Position numbers and translations under genes: made by a program | DNA from: a virus | Virus record (IMG/VR): IMGVR_UViG_3300029244_000004 | Strand: one strand, 5' to 3' | Length of the DNA stretch: 44,979 bases | Notes under the pieces: model-generated | What the model was told of the DNA's origin: nothing | The model's database searches: none | The model's input: the letters and a program-made list of their open reading frames with translations, nothing else | Shown: positions 2,284-41,511 of the stretch, one piece after another | Layout of the letters: each line of letters starts with the position of its first letter | Numbering within the stretch: the first letter of the stretch is position 1

Positions 2284-4968
2284 CTATCTGTTCGTCAGGG
2301 ACATCCCGTGTCTACGGGCTACCTTCTTCTGGTTGCGGTAGATCACTTCCCCGTCCAGGTTAATAACGTTTTCAATAAGCTGACCATCTGCATTCATCCC
2401 GCTCCTGGTTAGGGCCATCATCACAGCCTGAACGATGGTATCAAGAGGTGCCTCCACATTGGTCCCACTCTTCTGGTCGCCCAAAACCGCCAAAAACTCA
2501 CGATTCGGAGGAATTACCGCACCACGGGCCAGTGCCGGAATATTTTGCATGGGTAACGAAACTGACCTTGCAGAAGCTCGTCCACTTCGGCTGGATGAGC
2601 TAGAACCGGAGGACGATTTACCAACAGTCTTATAAACCGTTGTAATTGTGATGGTTATATTCCGCTCAATAGATGCCAGCTTTGCGTTAAGGGCATTGAT
2701 CTCCGCAATTACTCCCTGAATGTTTTGGGATGCCTTGTTGTAGCAGTCAGTCCAAGTCTTGTTCCAAGCAGGAGCAAATTCGCCCGTCATATACAGGAGG
2801 AAGGCAACCAACGATGCTTTCATAAGCTCTGTATTGTTGGTACAAAGAGCTAATACCGCATTAAACATGATGCTAAAGGCGGATACGACCATTGTGGAAT
2901 TGTCGTTTACACCGTTTTCCAGTCCGGACATCATGTATCCGCCCAGGTCCTCGAATTCAGTAGATGGGGAATGGATGCCAAAGAAATCCTTTACTCCATC
3001 AATAAAGTTTCCGCCCCATTCAGTAATTTTTTGCCCAATGGAAGATAAGCCGTTAAACAAACCGTCCAGCATATCTTGACCGAGTCCAAGCCAATAATCC
3101 AAAGTGAAGAATTTAGACGGGCCAGCATCCCACCATGAAGTAAAATTACTCCATGCTCCAGATATGGCATCCAGAATAAAATTCCAGTTTGGAACAATTG
3201 CAACAACTAGACCGGCCGCCCCAGTAGCAATAAGTCCAAGCCCAAGAGGGATTCCGGCACCAGTGAACAGAAGTATCACACCAAGAACCAACAAAGCGCC
3301 GCTAACGATTGCTGTAACTGCTCCTATCGGACCTTGCAAAGCAGTTTGTATAGTGTCCCAGTTTATCACTGCAGCAGCGGCCAAACTGATTGCTCCCGCT
3401 GCCATCATACCAACTCCAAGAGCCATATTCGCACCAGAGAAGGTAAGGACAGCGCCCAACACAAGAAGCGACACACCAAGCAGCCCGGCAATCTCTGTAA
3501 TAACTTGCTTTATGCTGATTGTTGTACTGCCCCAATTCAACGCAACCGCAGCCGCCATAGCTACCGCACCTGCAATCATAAGCCCGATACCGAGCGGGAT
3601 ATTCGCACCAGAGAAGGTAAATAGTGCGCCAAGCACCAGAAGCGAAACGGACAACAACTCCAGAATCCCGGTAATTGCCCTCTGCATTTCTTCCGACATG
3701 GTGCTCCAATTCAACGCAACCGCCGTGCCAAGCGCAAGTGCGCCAACAATCATAAGGCCAATACCAAGTAGGATGTTTGCGCCCGAAAAGGCTAGAATGG
3801 CTCCGATTACAAGTGCCGCGCCTCCTAGTATAATCAGGACTCTGTTGATTGCTTCAAGTAATGGGCCATCAAGCGCCCCCCAGTTCTCCGAAACGACGGA
3901 TACAAGCCCAATTGCCCCCGCTGCCATAAGCGAAAGTCCAAGGGGGATATTCACTCCTGAAAACGCAAGGAGCGCACCAAGCGCAAGAAGGGCACCACTC
4001 ACATACGCCGTTAATTCATCAATCTTCTGCTTGTATTCCGCAGTCGAGAAATCATCAAAAACAGGTTTTATTCCTTCTGATGCTCCTGCACCTGTACCAC
4101 CAGAAGCCGCCCCTCCCCCAGATAGTTTGTTGATCTCATCGAAACTGGCAAGGGACTTACTGGCCTTCTTAGCCGCTGACCCTACACCTTCAACGGCATT
4201 TGCCTCATTGTAAAGGTTTTCTGCCGCCTCTGCGGATGCTTCGACCGTCGTGCCAAAAAGCGCCGATACCACACGCGCAATAGCCGACACAATGCGGGCA
4301 AGCACATTTACAAACGCCGTAAAGGCTGGTATAATCACGTTGATCAGAGGCTGTGCCAGGGTCAGCAGCGCTCCCTTCAGACGTCCAATTGCCTGTGACG
4401 CTTCATCGTTGGTTTTGATGAGCTTCCCGAGCCACTGACGCAGAGCGGCTGCGCCCTGAGAAATCACGGTGAAAACCAACGCGCTTCGGAGGACTTCCCG
4501 AAGCCGGAGGGAGAACCGCTGTGCTCCCTTCTGGGCTCGGTCCACGGCTTTCGACATGGCTTCGGCGGCTGGGCCTGTGCGGGCCATATTCTGGTACAGC
4601 TCTCCAGCTTGCGTTTTTGCCAAATCCAGCCGCGTCGTGGTCTCCTGGATTCCGCGATCCATTCGTTCAATTTGGACAACCACTCCATCCCACTCTTTCT
4701 GGAGGCTAGACACAACGGCCCTTTGTTCATCCACATGGGCAGAGGTAAAAAACTTCCCGCTGTTTTCCATGCTGTCCAGCTTCGCCTTTGCGGCATCCAG
4801 CTCAACACCTAGCTTCTGCGCCTGCTCCACAAGCGGGATTTTCTGTTGCTGTTTGACATATAGCTGGTCGTTCAGTGTCTGTATCTTCCTATTGAGCCGG
4901 TTGAGTTCCTGCTGGGCCTTTTTGTCATCAATGTTCGTCTCAATGACGATAGAACCATCAGCCGCCAT
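2284..4968 (-). CDS. tail tape measure protein
   Basis: 894 aa with a coiled-coil N-terminus and an SLASFDEINKLS motif. It lies between the chaperone-type genes and the distal tail genes. Confidence 0.9.
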   Translation of the reverse strand: MAADGSIVIETNIDDKKAQQELNRLNRKIQTLNDQLYVKQQQKIPLVEQAQKLGVELDAAKAKLDSMENSGKFFTSAHVDEQRAVVSSLQKEWDGVVVQIERMDRGIQETTTRLDLAKTQAGELYQNMARTGPAAEAMSKAVDRAQKGAQRFSLRLREVLRSALVFTVISQGAAALRQWLGKLIKTNDEASQAIGRLKGALLTLAQPLINVIIPAFTAFVNVLARIVSAIARVVSALFGTTVEASAEAAENLYNEANAVEGVGSAAKKASKSLASFDEINKLSGGGAASGGTGAGASEGIKPVFDDFSTAEYKQKIDELTAYVSGALLALGALLAFSGVNIPLGLSLMAAGAIGLVSVVSENWGALDGPLLEAINRVLIILGGAALVIGAILAFSGANILLGIGLMIVGALALGTAVALNWSTMSEEMQRAITGILELLSVSLLVLGALFTFSGANIPLGIGLMIAGAVAMAAAVALNWGSTTISIKQVITEIAGLLGVSLLVLGAVLTFSGANMALGVGMMAAGAISLAAAAVINWDTIQTALQGPIGAVTAIVSGALLVLGVILLFTGAGIPLGLGLIATGAAGLVVAIVPNWNFILDAISGAWSNFTSWWDAGPSKFFTLDYWLGLGQDMLDGLFNGLSSIGQKITEWGGNFIDGVKDFFGIHSPSTEFEDLGGYMMSGLENGVNDNSTMVVSAFSIMFNAVLALCTNNTELMKASLVAFLLYMTGEFAPAWNKTWTDCYNKASQNIQGVIAEINALNAKLASIERNITITITTVYKTVGKSSSGSSSSSRSGRASARSVSLPMQNIPALARGAVIPPNREFLAVLGDQKSGTNVEAPLDTIVQAVMMALTRSGMNADGQLIENVINLDGEVIYRNQKKVARRHGMSLTNR
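3184..4008 (-). repeat. five tandem copies (about 57 aa / 172 nt) of a hydrophobic hairpin module inside the tape measure
   Basis: The unit LL(V/A)LGA.L.FSGANIPLGIGLM.AGA...A.AV.(L/I)NW recurs at about aa 321, 376, 434, 493 and 551. Confidence 0.85.
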
Positions 4969-32720: not shown

Positions 32721-32954
32721 TTATTGGACAGTTCCCGTGCTATCATGATCGCACTTCTGGATTTCCAAAATTTCCCGGATAGCCTGAACAACCTTGGGGG
32801 TGGAGAGCTGGCCGGTCTTGATCTTGTACATATAAGAATCATCAAAATACAAGCCAGTCCTGTTTCGAACTTCCTCAATTAACCAGGTCTGCGGTTTGTC
32901 TAAGTCAATCAGCCGCTTCCCGATGTCCTTGCCGAACGCCGTAAGTTGTGCCAT
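32721..32954 (-). CDS. Cro-like HTH regulator
   Basis: GGAGGTGA lies 8 nt before ATG 32954. The gene is divergent from the CI-like gene and first in the early operon. Confidence 0.6.
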   Translation of the reverse strand: MAQLTAFGKDIGKRLIDLDKPQTWLIEEVRNRTGLYFDDSYMYKIKTGQLSTPKVVQAIREILEIQKCDHDSTGTVQ

Positions 32955-32983
32955 TCCATTGCTCACCTCCCTATATCGTGTTG

Positions 32984-33012
32984 TTGACAATTACGGAAAG
33001 TTGTAATATACT
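32984..33012 (+). promoter_or_regulatory. rightward promoter candidate (towards the repressor gene)
   Basis: TTGACA, 17 nt, TATACT. Confidence 0.5.
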
Positions 33013-33088: not shown

Positions 33089-33144
33089 GTAAAAAGTACG
33101 GTCATCTGTAATTTTGCCTTTTTGCACAAATGCCGGGAGGAATT

Positions 33145-39465: not shown

Positions 39466-40230
39466 TTACTTCAACGCCGCCGCCCTTGCCATGACGGCAC
39501 TCTCCTCACGAGTGACAAATGCCATAGGTCGGGTCCCATCTGTCAGGCCAAGCTCGTTGGCCTCTGCAAACAGCTTCGGCATACTGGCCGGCAGCTCCGC
39601 TCGCTCGGCCAGATAGCGGTCCATGTACTCCTTCCACTGCTCGTAGGTCACTTCTTGCTCACCTCTCATCTTCTGGGCTACATCCCCCCGGAAATCATCC
39701 ATGGTCTTGCCGAATTTGGGGAACCAATGGAGAACGTCGGAATGGTTGCTGGCTACGCCCCGCTGATAGCCCTCCTTATGGCAAATTACCACTCCGTCAG
39801 CCAACGGGTCCAGGTTATACTCCTTGCAGAGATAGGCTGTCAGCTCCACGGCCTCCTGGTACACCGCCTCAAAATAGCTGGCATCCTCCAGGCCGTCCTC
39901 GCAAATTTCAAAGGAGATATGGGTATCATTTGCACTGCCATTCTTCCCTCGGCCACAGTGCCAGCCACGGCGATTCCAAGGAAGGGTCTGCACCGTGCCA
40001 ACGCCTCCGTCGGCAAATTTTCCTACAAAGGCGTGGACGCACTTATTCAGTCCTGTCCTGTCCCAATCATTTGCGTACTGGTTCCGACCAATTACATCAT
40101 CTCCGGGCACATAGCGGGCCACAGAGGGGTTATTAGCCCCGGTCGAGTGTACCATTACCCCCTGTGGCCGGATGGTCCTCCCGGCCCTGTAACAGTCGTT
40201 TCTGGTCAAATACTGTTGTACGATCCTCAT
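39466..40230 (-). CDS. endolysin, N-acetylmuramoyl-L-alanine amidase (Amidase_2/PGRP type)
   Basis: GGAGGA lies before ATG 40230. The sequence contains ..GVMVHSTGANN...HAFVG...WHCG...ISFEICE.. followed by a short C-terminal wall-binding-like tail. Confidence 0.8.
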   Translation of the reverse strand: MRIVQQYLTRNDCYRAGRTIRPQGVMVHSTGANNPSVARYVPGDDVIGRNQYANDWDRTGLNKCVHAFVGKFADGGVGTVQTLPWNRRGWHCGRGKNGSANDTHISFEICEDGLEDASYFEAVYQEAVELTAYLCKEYNLDPLADGVVICHKEGYQRGVASNHSDVLHWFPKFGKTMDDFRGDVAQKMRGEQEVTYEQWKEYMDRYLAERAELPASMPKLFAEANELGLTDGTRPMAFVTREESAVMARAAALK

Positions 40231-40268
40231 GATATCCTCCAAGGACGGCAAAAGGCCGCCCCGTCTAC

Positions 40269-40296
40269 TTGACAAAGCGGCCTGATCTGATATAAT
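40269..40296 (+). promoter_or_regulatory. consensus sigma-70 promoter pointing away from the endolysin
   Basis: TTGACA (40269-74), 16 nt, TATAAT (40291-96). Confidence 0.65.
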
Positions 40297-40352
40297 AATG
40301 ACGAAGGGATGACTGCGACAAGCGGTTAGCCCAGATGCAAAGTTATAGTTTC

Positions 40353-40395
40353 AAAAAGAAACCGTCACCTGCCGGGGTGGCGGTTTCTGCTTTTC
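40353..40395. terminator. bidirectional intrinsic terminator
   Basis: GAAACCG-n-CACC...GGTG-n-CGGTTTC (40358-40387). AAAAA lies on the left, giving a U-run for the minus strand. TGCTTTTC lies on the right. Confidence 0.65.
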
Positions 40396-40442
40396 ACAAT
40401 GATCGTGACCGTGAACGGTCCGATATGTAATGTGATCCGCAT
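40365..40442 (-). CDS. 25-aa micro-ORF inside the small transcript (speculative)
   Basis: MRITLHIGPFTVTIIVKSRNRHPGR. The GGGGGTGAGG SD is sequestered in the CACCACCC/GGGGGTG hairpin. The stop codon lies inside the terminator stem. Confidence 0.25.
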   Translation of the reverse strand: MRITLHIGPFTVTIIVKSRNRHPGR

Positions 40443-40522
40443 GGCCTCACCCCCTCTCGGGTGGTGTGGCTAACCGCCTGCCGTTGTTGCAGTATCCCTC
40501 CGGTCCCTTGTGGGACAAAATC

Positions 40523-40551
40523 ATTCTATCAGAGGGTCCGCTTTCTGTCAA
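40523..40551 (-). promoter_or_regulatory. near-consensus sigma-70 promoter (minus)
   Basis: Minus strand: TTGACA, 17 nt, TAGAAT. Confidence 0.65.
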
Positions 40552-40556
40552 TTCTT

Positions 40557-40582
40557 GCCGCCCAGTGGGGCGGCTTTTTCTT
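40557..40582 (+). terminator. plus-strand intrinsic terminator
   Basis: GCCGCCC-agt-GGGGCGGC followed by TTTTTCTT. It overlaps the stop codon of 40581..40847. Confidence 0.7.
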
Positions 40583-40847
40583 ATGCCTGCTCCGCCTGCT
40601 CGGCGGCCTCTTTGTCAGCCTGGATGCCAGCCTCCACGGCGGCGGCGAAGGTATCCATACCGCCAGTTTGATAAGCGGCGGCCAGCTCCGCACCGTGTCT
40701 GCCGGTAAACTCTCGCATGGCCTTGGACTCCTCGTCGGTAATCTCAGGGTGCTTCTTCAGGAGCATGGGCATGCCTACGGTAGCCAAATCGGGGGCATCG
40801 TTCTTCTCAGTGATTTCGTACAGTTCATACAGTAGTTCGGTTTTCAT
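40581..40847 (-). CDS. hypothetical acidic helical protein (88 aa) downstream of the holin
   Basis: AAGGAG lies 7 nt before ATG 40847. Confidence 0.55.
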   Translation of the reverse strand: MKTELLYELYEITEKNDAPDLATVGMPMLLKKHPEITDEESKAMREFTGRHGAELAAAYQTGGMDTFAAAVEAGIQADKEAAEQAEQA

Positions 40848-40876: not shown

Positions 40877-41137
40877 TTATTCCTTCATCTGTTTTATGGC
40901 CTGGTTGACACCAGTTGCCGCCAGACCGCTTACAATGCCCACGGCAACGGCGGTCAGCGGGTCCGTGGCCGGGAAATCCTGGAGGCCGGTATACAGCGCC
41001 GCCACGCCAAGCACACCGCCACACAGGCCCACGATAGCCGGAATGTACTTGTTATCCAGACCGGACGATTTGACAATCAGTCCAACCAGATAACAGATGA
41101 CGGTAATGGCCGCCACGGATGCGATTCCAAAGTCCAT
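40877..41137 (-). CDS. holin (Hol44 / Phage_holin_5-like)
   Basis: GAGGGGGTGA lies before ATG 41137. Translation: MDFGIASVAAITVICYLVGLIVK..KYIPAIVGLCGGVLGV...GIVSGLAATGVNQAIKQ. Confidence 0.7.
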   Translation of the reverse strand: MDFGIASVAAITVICYLVGLIVKSSGLDNKYIPAIVGLCGGVLGVAALYTGLQDFPATDPLTAVAVGIVSGLAATGVNQAIKQMKE

Positions 41138-41151
41138 ATTTTCACCCCCTC

Positions 41152-41511
41152 TCAAAGACCTATCTTGTCTAACAGAAAGGCCATAACCGCCGTAATAACC
41201 GCCGCAATTACGGCCCAACTTATTTTGCCTTTCAGATCTTTCCAGGTTCGTCCAGGCTCTGCCTGAATGTCTGACAATCCCTTGGACAGTGTGCTCACTT
41301 TACCCGTCAGGTCCTCAAGCTTTTCGAGTATCGTTGTGTACTGCTGCCCCTGCTCCGCACGGGCGATCTCTAGCTCCCGGATTCTGTTGAAAAACTCTTT
41401 GTGCGTCTGTCGGGACTGCTCCTTCCATTCGCTCATCTGCTTTTCCAGCATATTAGCTTTCTGGAGGCCAAGGCAATCCCGCTGTGGGTCTAAGATACAT
41501 TTTTCATCCAT
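41152..41511 (-). CDS. xhlA: XhlA-like protein (coiled coil plus C-terminal TM)
   Basis: A coiled coil is followed by KISWAVIAAVITAVMAFLL. The gene lies directly upstream of the holin, as in PBSX xhlA-xhlB. Confidence 0.55.
   Translation of the reverse strand: MDEKCILDPQRDCLGLQKANMLEKQMSEWKEQSRQTHKEFFNRIRELEIARAEQGQQYTTILEKLEDLTGKVSTLSKGLSDIQAEPGRTWKDLKGKISWAVIAAVITAVMAFLLDKIGL

What the first reader, a model, noticed from the sequence alone, without database searches (positions are those of the whole stretch)
40269..40582. Convergent consensus promoters and three terminators enclose a 230-bp structured locus that insulates the endolysin from the holin
The holin-module gene (ends 40581) and the endolysin (starts 40230) are 350 nt apart, and the gap has the features of an antisense pair. 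A minus-strand TTGACA-17-TAGAAT promoter (40523-51) drives an about 165-nt hairpin-rich RNA ending at a terminator (40358-87 plus U-run). A plus-strand TTGACA-16-TATAAT promoter (40269-96) drives the exact antisense. That antisense ends either at the same bidirectional hairpin or at a strong terminator (40557-82). The minus RNA contains a 25-codon ORF (MRITLHIGPFTVTIIVKSRNRHPGR) whose SD is buried in a CACCACCC-GAGA-GGGGGTG hairpin. This architecture resembles a type I toxin-antitoxin pair or a sense/antisense timing switch. It also means the endolysin is not simply co-transcribed with the holin. A weaker TTGTCG-17/18-TATTAT promoter overlaps the plus-strand -10 back to back.
Basis: partly seen in the sequence, partly recalled or inferred. 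Interest (0 to 1): 0.65.

Follow-up and report, generated by a model that had tools for sequence, protein, structure and literature searches.

The report
Unannotated toxin–antisense RNA module in phage
The 350-bp gap between the holin-side gene and the endolysin holds a self-contained accessory module, a conserved 25-codon peptide gene faced by a small antisense RNA gene, built like a type I toxin-antitoxin pair; it is an unannotated family common in gut Clostridia and their phages, not a core part of the phage's lysis control.

Summary
The described sequence features are real and not due to chance. Only five sites in the 45-kb window match the sigma-70 consensus at 11/12 or better, and two of them face each other in this gap.

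The module belongs to a family of over 140 copies in Oscillospiraceae, Lachnospiraceae and gut phage contigs.
- The 25-codon ORF is under purifying selection (pN/pS 0.09–0.32 in frame, about 1–8 off frame).
- Its ribosome-binding site sits in a hairpin with a GNRA-type loop.
- Covariation shows that the minus RNA does not stop at the middle hairpin. Its 5' leader pairs with a segment beyond that hairpin in a roughly 30-bp closing helix.
- The plus promoter is the best-conserved part (-35 TTGACA in 97/100 copies). It should make a roughly 90-nt RNA that ends at the middle hairpin and is fully complementary to the peptide mRNA's 3' part.

Sister phages carry the same RNA framework with the ORF swapped for a Pfam Hol_Tox (TxpA-type) toxin. 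Others carry an unrelated gene in the same slot.

Verdict: a new, unannotated type I toxin-antitoxin-like family, carried here as phage cargo. The "lysis timing switch / insulator" reading is not supported. Toxicity and the transcripts themselves remain untested.

The parts
40557..40582 (+). Plus-sense intrinsic terminator (GCCGCCC-AGTG-GGGCGGC followed by TTTTTCTT). It would stop plus-strand read-through before it runs antisense into the late genes. On the minus strand no U-run follows the hairpin, so it is not a terminator for holin-side transcription.
   Evidence: scan. The stem covaries in L001-L003. It is conserved in sister phages.
40523..40551 (-). Promoter of the peptide mRNA (TTGACA-17-TAGAAT with a TG extension). 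The predicted transcription start is about 40516.
   Evidence: A promoter lies at the equivalent place in 66/66 full copies, with a median match of 10/12, TG in 46/66 and a 17-nt spacer in 46/66.
40503..40516 (-). Stem-loop at the very 5' end of the mRNA (GUCCC-ACAA-GGGAC).
   Evidence: In other copies a hairpin of different sequence starts about 6 nt after the -10 box (listing).
40468..40501 (-). 5' strand of the long-range closing helix (GGAGGGAUACUGC, then a 6-nt bulge AACAAC, then GGCAGGCGGUUAGCC).
   Evidence: fold z-score -9.0; covariation with 40303-40332, and G·U pairs that exist only in the minus sense.
40448..40466 (-). Hairpin that sequesters the SD, capped by a GAGA (GNRA-type) tetraloop. 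The SD is GGGGGUG.
   Evidence: The SD is fully paired in 58/62 copies and at least 53 have a GNRA loop. Pair 52:64 is U-A in 19 sequences and C-G in 17.
40365..40442 (-). 25-codon ORF plus stop codon: MRITLHIGPFTVTIIVKSRNRHPGR. It is the putative toxin.
   Evidence: pN/pS is 0.09 (R-type) and 0.32 (P-type) in frame against 0.97-7.8 off frame. Third codon positions vary about 2-6 times more than positions 1-2. The two subfamilies differ by an in-frame 2-codon indel.
40357..40388 (+). Middle hairpin, read as the intrinsic terminator of the plus-strand small RNA. It overlaps the last 8 codons of the ORF. On the minus strand it carries a C·A mismatch, and in this window also a U-run, so it may terminate part of the minus transcripts.
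   Evidence: C·A on minus and G·U on plus in 90/95 copies. The plus-strand fold is more stable in 94/95 (-20.9 against -15.3 kcal/mol). T count after the stem averages 6.3/10 on plus and 4.6/10 on minus.
40303..40332 (-). 3' strand of the closing helix (GGGCUAACCGCUUGUCGCAGU followed by CAUCCCUUC). It is also the exact complement of the first 30 nt of the small RNA.
40269..40296 (+). Promoter of the antisense small RNA (TTGACA-16-TATAAT, TG-extended). The predicted start is about 40303.
   Evidence: In 100 unique copies the -35 is TTGACA in 97, the -10 is TATAAT or TATACT in 90, the spacer is 17 nt in 86, and 95 score 11/12 or better.
40303..40395 (+). Predicted small RNA of about 90 nt, the putative antitoxin. 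It has a 5' stem-loop (40306-40332), an unconserved linker and a terminator hairpin.
   Evidence: fold z-score -5.1. The ends are inferred from the promoter and terminator. No Rfam family matches.
40248..40282 (-). Minus-sense terminator (a 13-bp stem, GGCCGCUUUGUC-AAGUA-GACGGGGCGGCC, followed by UUUU). It is the predicted 3' end of the peptide mRNA. It straddles the plus -35 box and ends about 12 nt before the endolysin ribosome-binding site.
   Evidence: (alignment). It is conserved in sister phages and in L154 and L173. A strict equivalent is found in only about one third of family copies.
40250..40516 (-). Predicted full-length peptide mRNA, about 265 nt.
   Evidence: Inferred from the promoter, the covarying 5'-3' helix and the terminator. 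Not shown experimentally.
39466..40230 (-). Context only: endolysin (Amidase_2).
40581..40847 (-). Context only: 88-aa gene of unknown function downstream of the holin (holin at 40877-41137, Phage_holin_5_2).

Best explanation
The gap holds an autonomous type I toxin-antitoxin-like module, carried by the phage as accessory cargo (a 'moron').

The peptide mRNA. A sigma-70-type promoter on the minus strand makes an mRNA of about 265 nt for a 25-aa cationic, moderately hydrophobic peptide. The mRNA is built to be stable and translationally silent:
- it starts with a 5'-terminal stem-loop;
- its 5' leader pairs with its 3' untranslated region in a roughly 30-bp closing helix;
- its ribosome-binding site is locked in a GNRA-capped hairpin.

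The antisense RNA. A stronger, nearly invariant promoter on the plus strand makes a small RNA of about 90 nt. It ends at the middle hairpin and is perfectly complementary to the 3' part of the mRNA. Its first 30 nt are the exact complement of the 3' strand of the closing helix, so they mimic the mRNA's own leader.

Inferred mechanism. The small RNA displaces the leader and forms a long perfect duplex. That duplex exposes the mRNA to double-strand-specific cleavage and decay, and may also tighten the block on the ribosome-binding site. If the small RNA is lost, the stable mRNA persists and the peptide is made.

What is shown from sequence: the genes, the promoters, selection on the ORF as a protein, and the RNA helices. 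What is inferred: the transcripts' ends, the toxicity, and the neutralisation step.
For: 1. Non-random features. Two of the five sites matching the consensus at 11/12 or better in 45 kb face each other here.

2. Family size. 100 unique copies were found through the 20-mer of the 3' element. Copies are multiple per genome: three in tandem in L011, and five places on one Vescimonas replicon.

3. The ORF is protein-coding. pN/pS is 0.09-0.32 in frame against about 1-8 off frame, and the two subfamilies differ by an in-frame indel.

4. RNA structure. RNAalifold run without constraints recovers the 5'-3' helix, the SD hairpin and the middle hairpin. 96.6% of cells are paired, against 33-50% when partners are slid. 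136 cells show compensatory changes, against 9-39.

5. Further compensatory changes outside the search pattern: GCAGC with GCUGC, GCAAC with GUUGC, a matched 1-nt insertion on both sides, and UUGCC with GGCGG.

6. Strand assignment.
- The leader:3' duplex is more stable in the minus sense in 66/66 copies (-47.7 against -37.5 kcal/mol).
- The middle hairpin is more stable in the plus sense in 94/95.

7. Promoter asymmetry. The plus promoter scores 11-12/12 in 95/100 copies, while the minus promoter has a median of 10/12.

8. Cassette exchange.
- Sister phages L004/L007 have an identical leader, 3' element and promoters.
- Their ORF, however, is MVTYSDLIQIGILIVGILGLILQITKRK, which passes the Pfam Hol_Tox gathering score (24.5 against 23.3 bits).
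- 'Holin-like toxin' is how TxpA-family type I toxins are annotated (PMC2887945).

9. Loss of the peptide gene. 16 of 95 copies keep only the small-RNA gene.

10. Match to described hallmarks. SD/anti-SD hairpin, 5' stem-loop, 3' terminator, a 5'-3' long-distance interaction, and an antisense RNA on the 3' side are the determinants listed for type I toxin mRNAs of Gram-positive bacteria (PMC8594479).
Against: - No transcript, toxicity or neutralisation data exist.
- The window's peptide does not meet a classical transmembrane-helix criterion. Its best 19-residue Kyte-Doolittle mean is 0.73, against 2.41 for the Hol_Tox variant. Its uncharged run is 14 residues, broken by Gly-Pro.
- It matches no Pfam, NCBIfam or PHROG family, and the small RNA matches no Rfam antitoxin family.
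- Comparable loci, such as YhzE of B. subtilis, have an antisense RNA but showed no toxicity (PMC2887945).
- The 3' end of the mRNA is not uniformly marked. A strict minus-sense terminator beyond the 3' element was found in only about one third of copies.
- In this window the middle hairpin has a good minus-strand U-run, so a shorter 165-nt RNA may also exist.
Confidence: 0.7

Rival explanations
1. It is a small-protein gene regulated by a cis-antisense RNA, but the peptide is not a self-toxin. It could be a membrane-associated or regulatory small protein, or a factor that excludes other phages, expressed from the prophage. The antisense RNA would only tune its level.
For: - The peptide lacks a canonical transmembrane segment and looks prone to beta structure.
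- It has no homology to any described toxin.
- YhzE-type loci show the same layout without measurable toxicity (PMC2887945).
- The module sits in typical cargo positions of prophages: next to integrases and in the lysis region.
Against: - The same framework carries a bona fide Hol_Tox/TxpA-family toxin in sister phages.
- Silencing is layered: a sequestered SD, a closing helix, and a stronger antisense promoter.
- The peptide gene is repeatedly lost while the small RNA is kept, in 16 of 95 copies. This fits a harmful product.
Confidence: 0.2
2. One reading: a sense/antisense switch belonging to the lysis cassette. It would separate endolysin transcription from holin transcription and time lysis, perhaps with the peptide acting as an auxiliary holin-like factor.
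For: - Two minus-sense terminator-like hairpins lie between the holin-side gene and the endolysin.
- The plus promoter fires head-on against late transcription.
- The module sits directly upstream of endolysins with three different catalytic regions (window; L154/L188 Amidase_2; L173 Amidase_3).
- There is a precedent: hokW-sokW of prophage Sp5 aids lysis and phage release (PMC8621323).
Against: - Thirteen sister phages with 73-94% identical endolysins replace the module with an unrelated opposite-strand gene. A more distant relative has no insert at all.
- The same module occurs beside integrases, tail genes and bacterial serC/blaI/rumA genes.
- The three endolysin-linked cases share the orf88-like gene and the endolysin C-terminal domain. 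They probably reflect one mosaic phage group rather than independent recruitment.
- The hairpin at 40557-40574 is not a terminator in the late-gene direction.
Confidence: 0.07
3. It is a leader-peptide or terminator attenuator that controls the endolysin in cis: promoter, short ORF, terminator, then gene.
For: The order promoter, 25-codon ORF, hairpin with U-run, then endolysin resembles an attenuator in this window.
Against: - Downstream genes differ completely among family copies and are often on the other strand.
- The peptide is conserved as a protein rather than for particular codons.
- The hairpin is optimised for the opposite strand.
- The conserved antisense promoter has no role in such a scheme.
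Confidence: 0.02

Closest known systems
TxpA/RatA of the Bacillus subtilis skin element, and the wider TxpA ('holin-like toxin', Pfam Hol_Tox PF16935) type I family
   Same: - The genes converge, and the antisense RNA lies on the 3' side, overlapping the end of the ORF and the 3' UTR.
- The peptide is small with a cationic tail.
- The locus sits on a mobile element.
- In sister phages L004/L007 this very RNA framework encodes a peptide that passes the Hol_Tox threshold (layout per PMC8594479).
   Different: - The window's peptide has no similarity to TxpA/Hol_Tox and no canonical transmembrane helix.
- The small RNA does not match RatA or any other Rfam antitoxin.
- If the mRNA ends as predicted, it covers the small RNA completely rather than partly.
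BsrG/SR4, BsrE/SR5 and YonT/SR6 of B. subtilis prophages (SPβ and a prophage-like element)
   Same: - They are prophage-borne.
[quoted passage not shown]
- The SD is partly sequestered.
- From my own knowledge of these systems, the antitoxin both triggers RNase III-dependent decay and, for SR4, tightens the SD block. This is the mechanism I infer here.
   Different: No sequence or family relation was detected. Those systems are not described as having a long covarying 5'-3' closing helix that the antitoxin's 5' end mimics.
hok/sok (plasmid R1) and AapA1/IsoA1 (Helicobacter pylori)
   Same: The full-length toxin mRNA is kept inert by a 5'-3' long-distance interaction and SD sequestration (general principle cited in PMC8594479).
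   Different: - These are Gram-negative systems.
- Their antisense RNA binds the 5' region, not the 3' part.
- Activation there needs 3' trimming, and nothing here shows that.
par (Fst/RNA I-RNA II) of Enterococcus plasmid pAD1
   Same: Two convergent promoters share one hairpin as a terminator. The toxin is a small peptide with a charged tail.
   Different: - In par (own knowledge), direct repeats give complementarity between the two 5' regions, and both RNAs end at the shared terminator.
- Here the repeat is inverted, so the two 5' regions have the same sense.
- Here the mRNA reads through the shared hairpin.
Type I toxin-antitoxin modules on prophages: hokW-sokW of Sp5 in E. coli O157, and modules in Clostridioides difficile prophages
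   Same: They are type I modules carried as prophage cargo. hokW-sokW affects phage release (PMC8621323).
   Different: The toxins, RNAs and hosts are different. No functional data exist for this module.

Membership tests
Type I toxin-antitoxin system (generic) | A small ORF (under 70 aa) encoding a hydrophobic peptide with a polar or charged C-terminus | tested here: met
   The peptide is 25 aa, with a 14-residue uncharged core, the tail KSRNRHPGR and net charge +5. It is under purifying selection.
Type I toxin-antitoxin system (generic) | A predicted transmembrane helix in the toxin | tested here: not met
   The best 19-residue Kyte-Doolittle mean is 0.73 for the window peptide and 1.30 for the P-type peptide, both below the customary 1.6. 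The core is broken by Gly-Pro or Gly. The Hol_Tox cassette in sister phages scores 2.41. This was a crude scale, not a dedicated predictor.
Type I toxin-antitoxin system (generic) | An antisense RNA gene with its own promoter and terminator, complementary to the toxin mRNA | tested here: met
   The plus promoter is conserved in 97/100 copies. The terminator hairpin is optimised for the plus strand in 94/95. The RNA overlaps the ORF's end and the 3' UTR. This is a prediction from sequence; no transcript has been observed.
Type I toxin-antitoxin system (generic) | Toxin mRNA determinants: an SD/anti-SD hairpin, a 5' stem-loop, a 3' terminator and a 5'-3' long-distance interaction (PMC8594479) | tested here: met
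Type I toxin-antitoxin system (generic) | Multi-copy or tandem occurrence, in intergenic positions on chromosomes and mobile elements | tested here: met
   Three tandem copies in L011, several contigs per genome assembly, five places on one Vescimonas replicon, and copies on phage contigs.
Type I toxin-antitoxin system (generic) | The peptide is toxic when over-expressed, and the RNA neutralises it | not testable with these tools
   This needs expression experiments.
TxpA / Hol_Tox (Pfam PF16935) | The peptide scores above the Pfam gathering threshold | tested here: not met
   The window peptide and both family consensus peptides give no hit. Only the swapped cassette of L004/L007 passes, at 24.5 against 23.3 bits.
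Known antitoxin or small-RNA families in Rfam (RatA, SR4-type, Sok, RNAII/par, OhsC and others) | A match at the family's gathering score | tested here: not met
   There is no hit at gathering thresholds in the whole window. The best permissive hits are OhsC at 21.3 bits (threshold 50, E 0.94) and TarB at 21.1 bits (threshold 80). Both are driven by the terminator.
Leader-peptide transcription attenuator | A constant functional link to the downstream gene, with a terminator on the same strand as the leader ORF | tested here: not met
   Downstream genes are unrelated across copies. The hairpin favours the opposite strand.
Core phage lysis-cassette element (holin, antiholin or lysis regulator) | Conserved presence in related phages' lysis cassettes, and restriction to that context | tested here: not met
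   It is replaced by other cargo in 13 sister phages and is absent from a more distant relative. It is found outside lysis cassettes and outside phages.

The most novel reading that the evidence does not exclude
The conserved leader and 3' element may form a universal regulatory 'socket' into which unrelated small peptide genes are swapped by recombination. At least three peptide types were seen: the beta-prone MRITL/MPITL peptide, a Hol_Tox peptide, and an amphipathic helical peptide in L096. In this phage group the socket has sat immediately upstream of the endolysin through several exchanges of the endolysin's catalytic domain. Strong late transcription running head-on into the antisense promoter could therefore silence the small RNA and release a membrane-active peptide as an extra lysis trigger. 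That would be a type I toxin recruited as a lysis timer, with a non-helical beta-hairpin peptide as a new kind of type I toxin.
Probability: 0.12. Interest if true: 0.7.

Novelty: new member of a known kind. Interest (0 to 1): 0.5.

Why it matters
- It adds an unannotated and apparently undescribed type I toxin-antitoxin-like family that is abundant in major human-gut Clostridia (Faecalibacterium, Oscillospiraceae, Lachnospiraceae) and in their phages. Very few RNA-based regulators are known in these organisms.
- The peptides are too short for standard gene callers and carry no name in the public databases searched. The small RNA is absent from Rfam.
- The family gives unusually clear comparative evidence for the mRNA architecture: a closing helix whose 3' strand is the antisense target, and strand-asymmetric hairpins.
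- It also shows toxin cassettes being exchanged inside a fixed RNA framework.
- For phage annotation, a long 'structured gap' inside a lysis cassette can be independent cargo rather than lysis regulation.

Tried and rejected
- Rfam at gathering and at permissive thresholds: no family. The OhsC and TarB hits are terminator-driven and far below threshold.
- tRNA and tmRNA scan: none.
- Pfam, NCBIfam and PHROGs on the peptides: nothing for the window peptide. The weak YrzI and MpPF26 hits (E 0.02-0.15) are not significant.
- Structure prediction was not possible because the peptide is under 30 aa.
- Exact look-up in the 15-billion-protein collection: the window peptide is absent. Two relatives are present but unnamed.
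- Full-text search for peptide strings: no paper. A search for type I toxin-antitoxin with Faecalibacterium listed no title or abstract describing this family.
- Plasmid database: only one large Vescimonas replicon.
- A par-like mechanism, with complementary 5' regions arising from direct repeats, is rejected. The repeat is inverted, so the two 5' regions have the same sense.
- The long plus-strand RNA of about 280 nt, ending at 40582, is rejected as the main product. The middle hairpin is a good plus-strand terminator across the family.
- My strict terminator finder located the outer terminators in only about one third of copies, so their generality is unsettled.
- A column-wise count on the outer part of the SD hairpin was not attempted, because a bulge shifts the MAFFT columns. 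Per-sequence folding was used instead.
Full report
**What is in the sequence**

The window is a phage or prophage genome with its late genes on the minus strand. Around the finding the gene order is as follows:
- an XhlA-like gene, 41152-41511;
- the holin, 40877-41137 (Phage_holin_5_2);
- an 88-aa gene of unknown family, 40581-40847;
- a 350-bp gap;
- an Amidase_2 endolysin, 39466-40230;
- an 83-aa gene with only weak, sub-threshold helix-turn-helix hits.

The promoter scan finds plus-strand TTGACA-16-TATAAT at 40269-40296 (12/12) and minus-strand TTGACA-17-TAGAAT at 40551-40523 (11/12). Both have a TG extension. Across the whole 44,979 bp only five sites reach 11/12, against 0.41 expected from Markov-1 simulations, and two of them are these. 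The 25-codon ORF, its SD-containing hairpin and the three G+C-rich hairpins are all present at the stated places.

**Corrections to the observation**

The hairpins are strand-specific.
- 40557-40574 is followed by a T-run only on the plus strand. It cannot terminate transcription arriving from the holin.
- 40254-40282 is followed by UUUU only on the minus strand.
- The middle hairpin, 40357-40388, has a C·A mismatch on the minus strand that becomes a G·U pair on the plus strand.

The 'weaker' TTGTCG/TATTAT promoter is a 9/12 match, which is chance level. It is made of a conserved RNA element and the reverse complement of the plus -10 region.

**It is a family**

blastn against phage records found the core of the gap (40312-40509) at about 70-79% identity in three human-faecal contigs whose flanks are unrelated. 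One of them is bacterial DNA lying between blaI-like and rumA-like genes.

A 20-mer from the most conserved stretch (GGCNNACCGCTTGTCGCAGT) retrieved 6 viral stretches and 108 genome stretches. After removing about 18 chance hits in unrelated taxa, 100 unique copies remained. They come from Faecalibacterium, other Oscillospiraceae, Lachnospiraceae and related genome assemblies.

Copies are multiple per genome: three in tandem in L011, and five places on one Vescimonas replicon.

**The ORF is a real gene**

The peptides fall into two subfamilies: MRITLHIGxFTVTIIVKSxNRHxxx (25 aa) and MPITLTFHxFGxxFTIKVKSxNRHPxR (27 aa). They differ by an in-frame two-codon indel, and some copies stop early at 20 aa.

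| Subfamily | pN/pS in frame | pN/pS in the other two frames |
|---|---|---|
| R-type (25 aa) | 0.09 | 2.2-7.8 |
| P-type (27 aa) | 0.32 | 0.97-1.8 |

Third codon positions vary about 2-6 times more than the first two positions.

The peptide has a moderately hydrophobic core rich in beta-branched residues, interrupted by Gly or Pro, and a strongly basic tail. It does not reach the usual hydropathy threshold for a transmembrane helix. It matches no Pfam, NCBIfam or PHROG family. It is essentially absent and unnamed in the protein collections, and no paper containing its sequence strings was found.

**The minus-strand RNA**

Folded from the predicted start (about 40516) to the 40254-40282 terminator, the RNA forms a closing helix of about 30 bp. 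The leader (40468-40501) pairs with 40303-40332, beyond the middle hairpin (z = -9.0).

RNAalifold on 39 diverse copies, run without guidance, recovers this helix, the SD hairpin and the middle hairpin. On that structure:
- 96.6% of cells are paired, against 33-50% when partners are slid;
- 136 cells show compensatory changes, against 9-39.

Compensatory changes occur outside the sequence used for retrieval. The helix flanks vary as AAAGG/CCUUU, GAGGGA/UCCCUU and GAGGAGC/GUUCCUC. In the independently retrieved set the pairs are GCAGC/GCUGC, GCAAC/GUUGC, UUGCC/GGCGG, and a matched one-base insertion on both sides.

Two invariant G·U pairs, and the energy comparison (minus sense better in 66/66 copies, -47.7 against -37.5 kcal/mol), assign this helix to the minus-strand RNA. 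The functional peptide mRNA must therefore read through the middle hairpin.

Other features of the mRNA:
- It begins with a stem-loop whose sequence varies while its position stays fixed.
- Its SD is fully paired in 58/62 copies, under a GNRA loop in at least 53.

**The plus-strand RNA**

The plus promoter is the most conserved feature of the family:
- -35 TTGACA in 97/100 copies;
- -10 TATAAT or TATACT in 90;
- a 17-nt spacer in 86;
- a fixed 15-nt distance to the conserved element in 65.

The minus promoter is weaker, with a median match of 10/12.

The middle hairpin is more stable on the plus strand in 94/95 copies. It carries C·A on minus and G·U on plus in 90/95, and is followed by more T's on the plus strand. 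The product is therefore a small RNA of about 90 nt, from about 40303 to about 40395 (z = -5.1). It is fully complementary to the 3' part of the mRNA.

Its first 30 nt are the exact complement of the 3' strand of the closing helix. They are therefore an improved copy of the mRNA's own leader. Sixteen of 95 copies keep only this small-RNA gene and have lost the promoter-to-ORF segment.

**What it most likely is**

The following features are the hallmarks listed for type I toxin-antitoxin loci, and specifically for the Gram-positive layout with the antisense RNA on the 3' side (PMC2887945; PMC8594479):
- a small cationic-tailed peptide gene;
- a structurally silenced and end-protected mRNA;
- a stronger convergent promoter for a fully complementary small RNA;
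- multi-copy and tandem occurrence;
- carriage on phages and chromosomes;
- repeated loss of the peptide gene.

The strongest single clue comes from sister phages. L004 and L007 have the same flanking genes, with the endolysin 92% identical. Their promoters, leader and 3' element are identical to the window's. Between the two halves of the helix, however, they carry a different SD hairpin, ORF and terminator. That ORF (MVTYSDLIQIGILIVGILGLILQITKRK) passes the Pfam Hol_Tox threshold, and 'holin-like toxin' is the label under which TxpA-family type I toxins are annotated. L096 carries a third, amphipathic peptide in the same framework.

I infer, but have not shown, the following mechanism. The small RNA displaces the leader from the 3' element and forms a long perfect duplex. 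This triggers double-strand-specific cleavage and decay, and may extend the SD-blocking helix, as described for BsrG/SR4 (own knowledge).

**What it is not**

A search for relatives of the endolysin in viral contigs shows that the slot between the 88-aa gene and the endolysin is a variable cargo site.
- Four sister phages carry this module, two with each peptide type.
- Thirteen, with endolysins 73-94% identical, carry an unrelated insert of about 345 bp. It encodes an 89-aa protein on the opposite strand, with its own promoter and a bidirectional terminator.
- A relative at 60% identity has the upstream 67-aa ORF overlapping the endolysin start, with no insert.

Elsewhere the module lies next to integrases, a tail-tube gene and bacterial housekeeping genes. 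It is therefore accessory cargo, not a built-in lysis timer or insulator.

It does sit directly upstream of endolysins with other catalytic domains in L154/L188 and L173. Those phages share the 88-aa-like gene and the endolysin C-terminal domain, however, so this is probably one mosaic lineage.

Whether the endolysin here is transcribed by read-through of the two minus-sense hairpins cannot be decided from sequence.

**Novelty and score**

The kind of system, a type I toxin-antitoxin module on a prophage, is well known. The peptide family, the small RNA and the shared framework appear to be undescribed and unannotated. The peptide is atypical because it has no clear transmembrane helix. I rate it a new member of a known kind, with an interest of about 0.5.

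The main uncertainty is functional. Toxicity, neutralisation and the transcript ends all need experiments.

Noticed in passing
L118-L120, L123-L127, L130-L133, L135 (about 400 bp upstream of the endolysin start in each locus); the equivalent slot is window 40231-40580: Sister phages carry a different insert of about 345 bp in the same slot. It is an opposite-strand 89-aa ORF (MHDYKLLCHFLRQAETAFSL...) with its own TTGACA-17-TAATAT promoter and a bidirectional terminator. It has no Pfam or PHROG match. The slot is a hot spot for exchangeable cargo.
   Followed up: partly
L004:7562-7796 and L007 (same locus type): These have the same promoters, leader and 3' element as the window. The segment between the two helix halves is replaced by a Hol_Tox-family ORF with its own SD hairpin and a terminator that works only in the plus sense. 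This looks like cassette exchange by recombination within the conserved flanks.
   Followed up: yes
L011:1166-2266: Three tandem modules lie about 440 bp apart in a Lachnospiraceae genome assembly. They mix the 27-29-aa P-type and the 25-aa R-type peptides.
   Followed up: partly
L003, L014, L023, L034, L046, L051, L059, L064, L066, L072, L086, L088, L093, L101, L102, L104: These are 'orphan' copies that keep the middle hairpin, the 3' element and the plus promoter but lack the minus promoter, leader and ORF. L059 lies beside a tRNA gene. In L022 the start codon is mutated to ATT.
   Followed up: partly
window 41152-41511 (-): A 119-aa ORF upstream of the holin matches phrog_937 ('hemolysin', XhlA-like). 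The lysis cassette therefore resembles the XhlA-holin-amidase arrangement of Bacillus PBSX-type elements, with an extra 88-aa gene of unknown family.
   Followed up: no
window 4307, 29910, 32984 (+): These are the only other sites in the window matching the sigma-70 consensus at 11/12 or better. 32984 lies in what looks like the lysogeny switch: a divergent region between the minus-strand HTH-like ORF at 32721-32990 and plus-strand genes starting at 33130.
   Followed up: no
L012, L015, L022, L027: True family copies lie on contigs binned as Bacteroidales, Bacteroidaceae, Oxalobacter and Barnesiella. These are probably binning errors, or transfer on phages. By contrast L010 and L025 (Bacteroides), and hits in Planctomycetota, Acidobacteriota and others, are chance 20-mer matches inside coding DNA.
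   Followed up: no
L154:4471-4852, L188:11243-11624, L173 (minus orientation, 4350-4725): The whole module, including the terminator that straddles the plus -35 box, sits immediately upstream of endolysins with other catalytic domains: Amidase_2 with an unrelated N-terminus, and Amidase_3. These endolysins share the window endolysin's C-terminal domain.
   Followed up: partly
protein P0003: The 90%-identity cluster holding the 27-aa peptide also lists a 903-aa NCBI protein. This is either a clustering oddity or a mis-called ORF running through a module.
   Followed up: no
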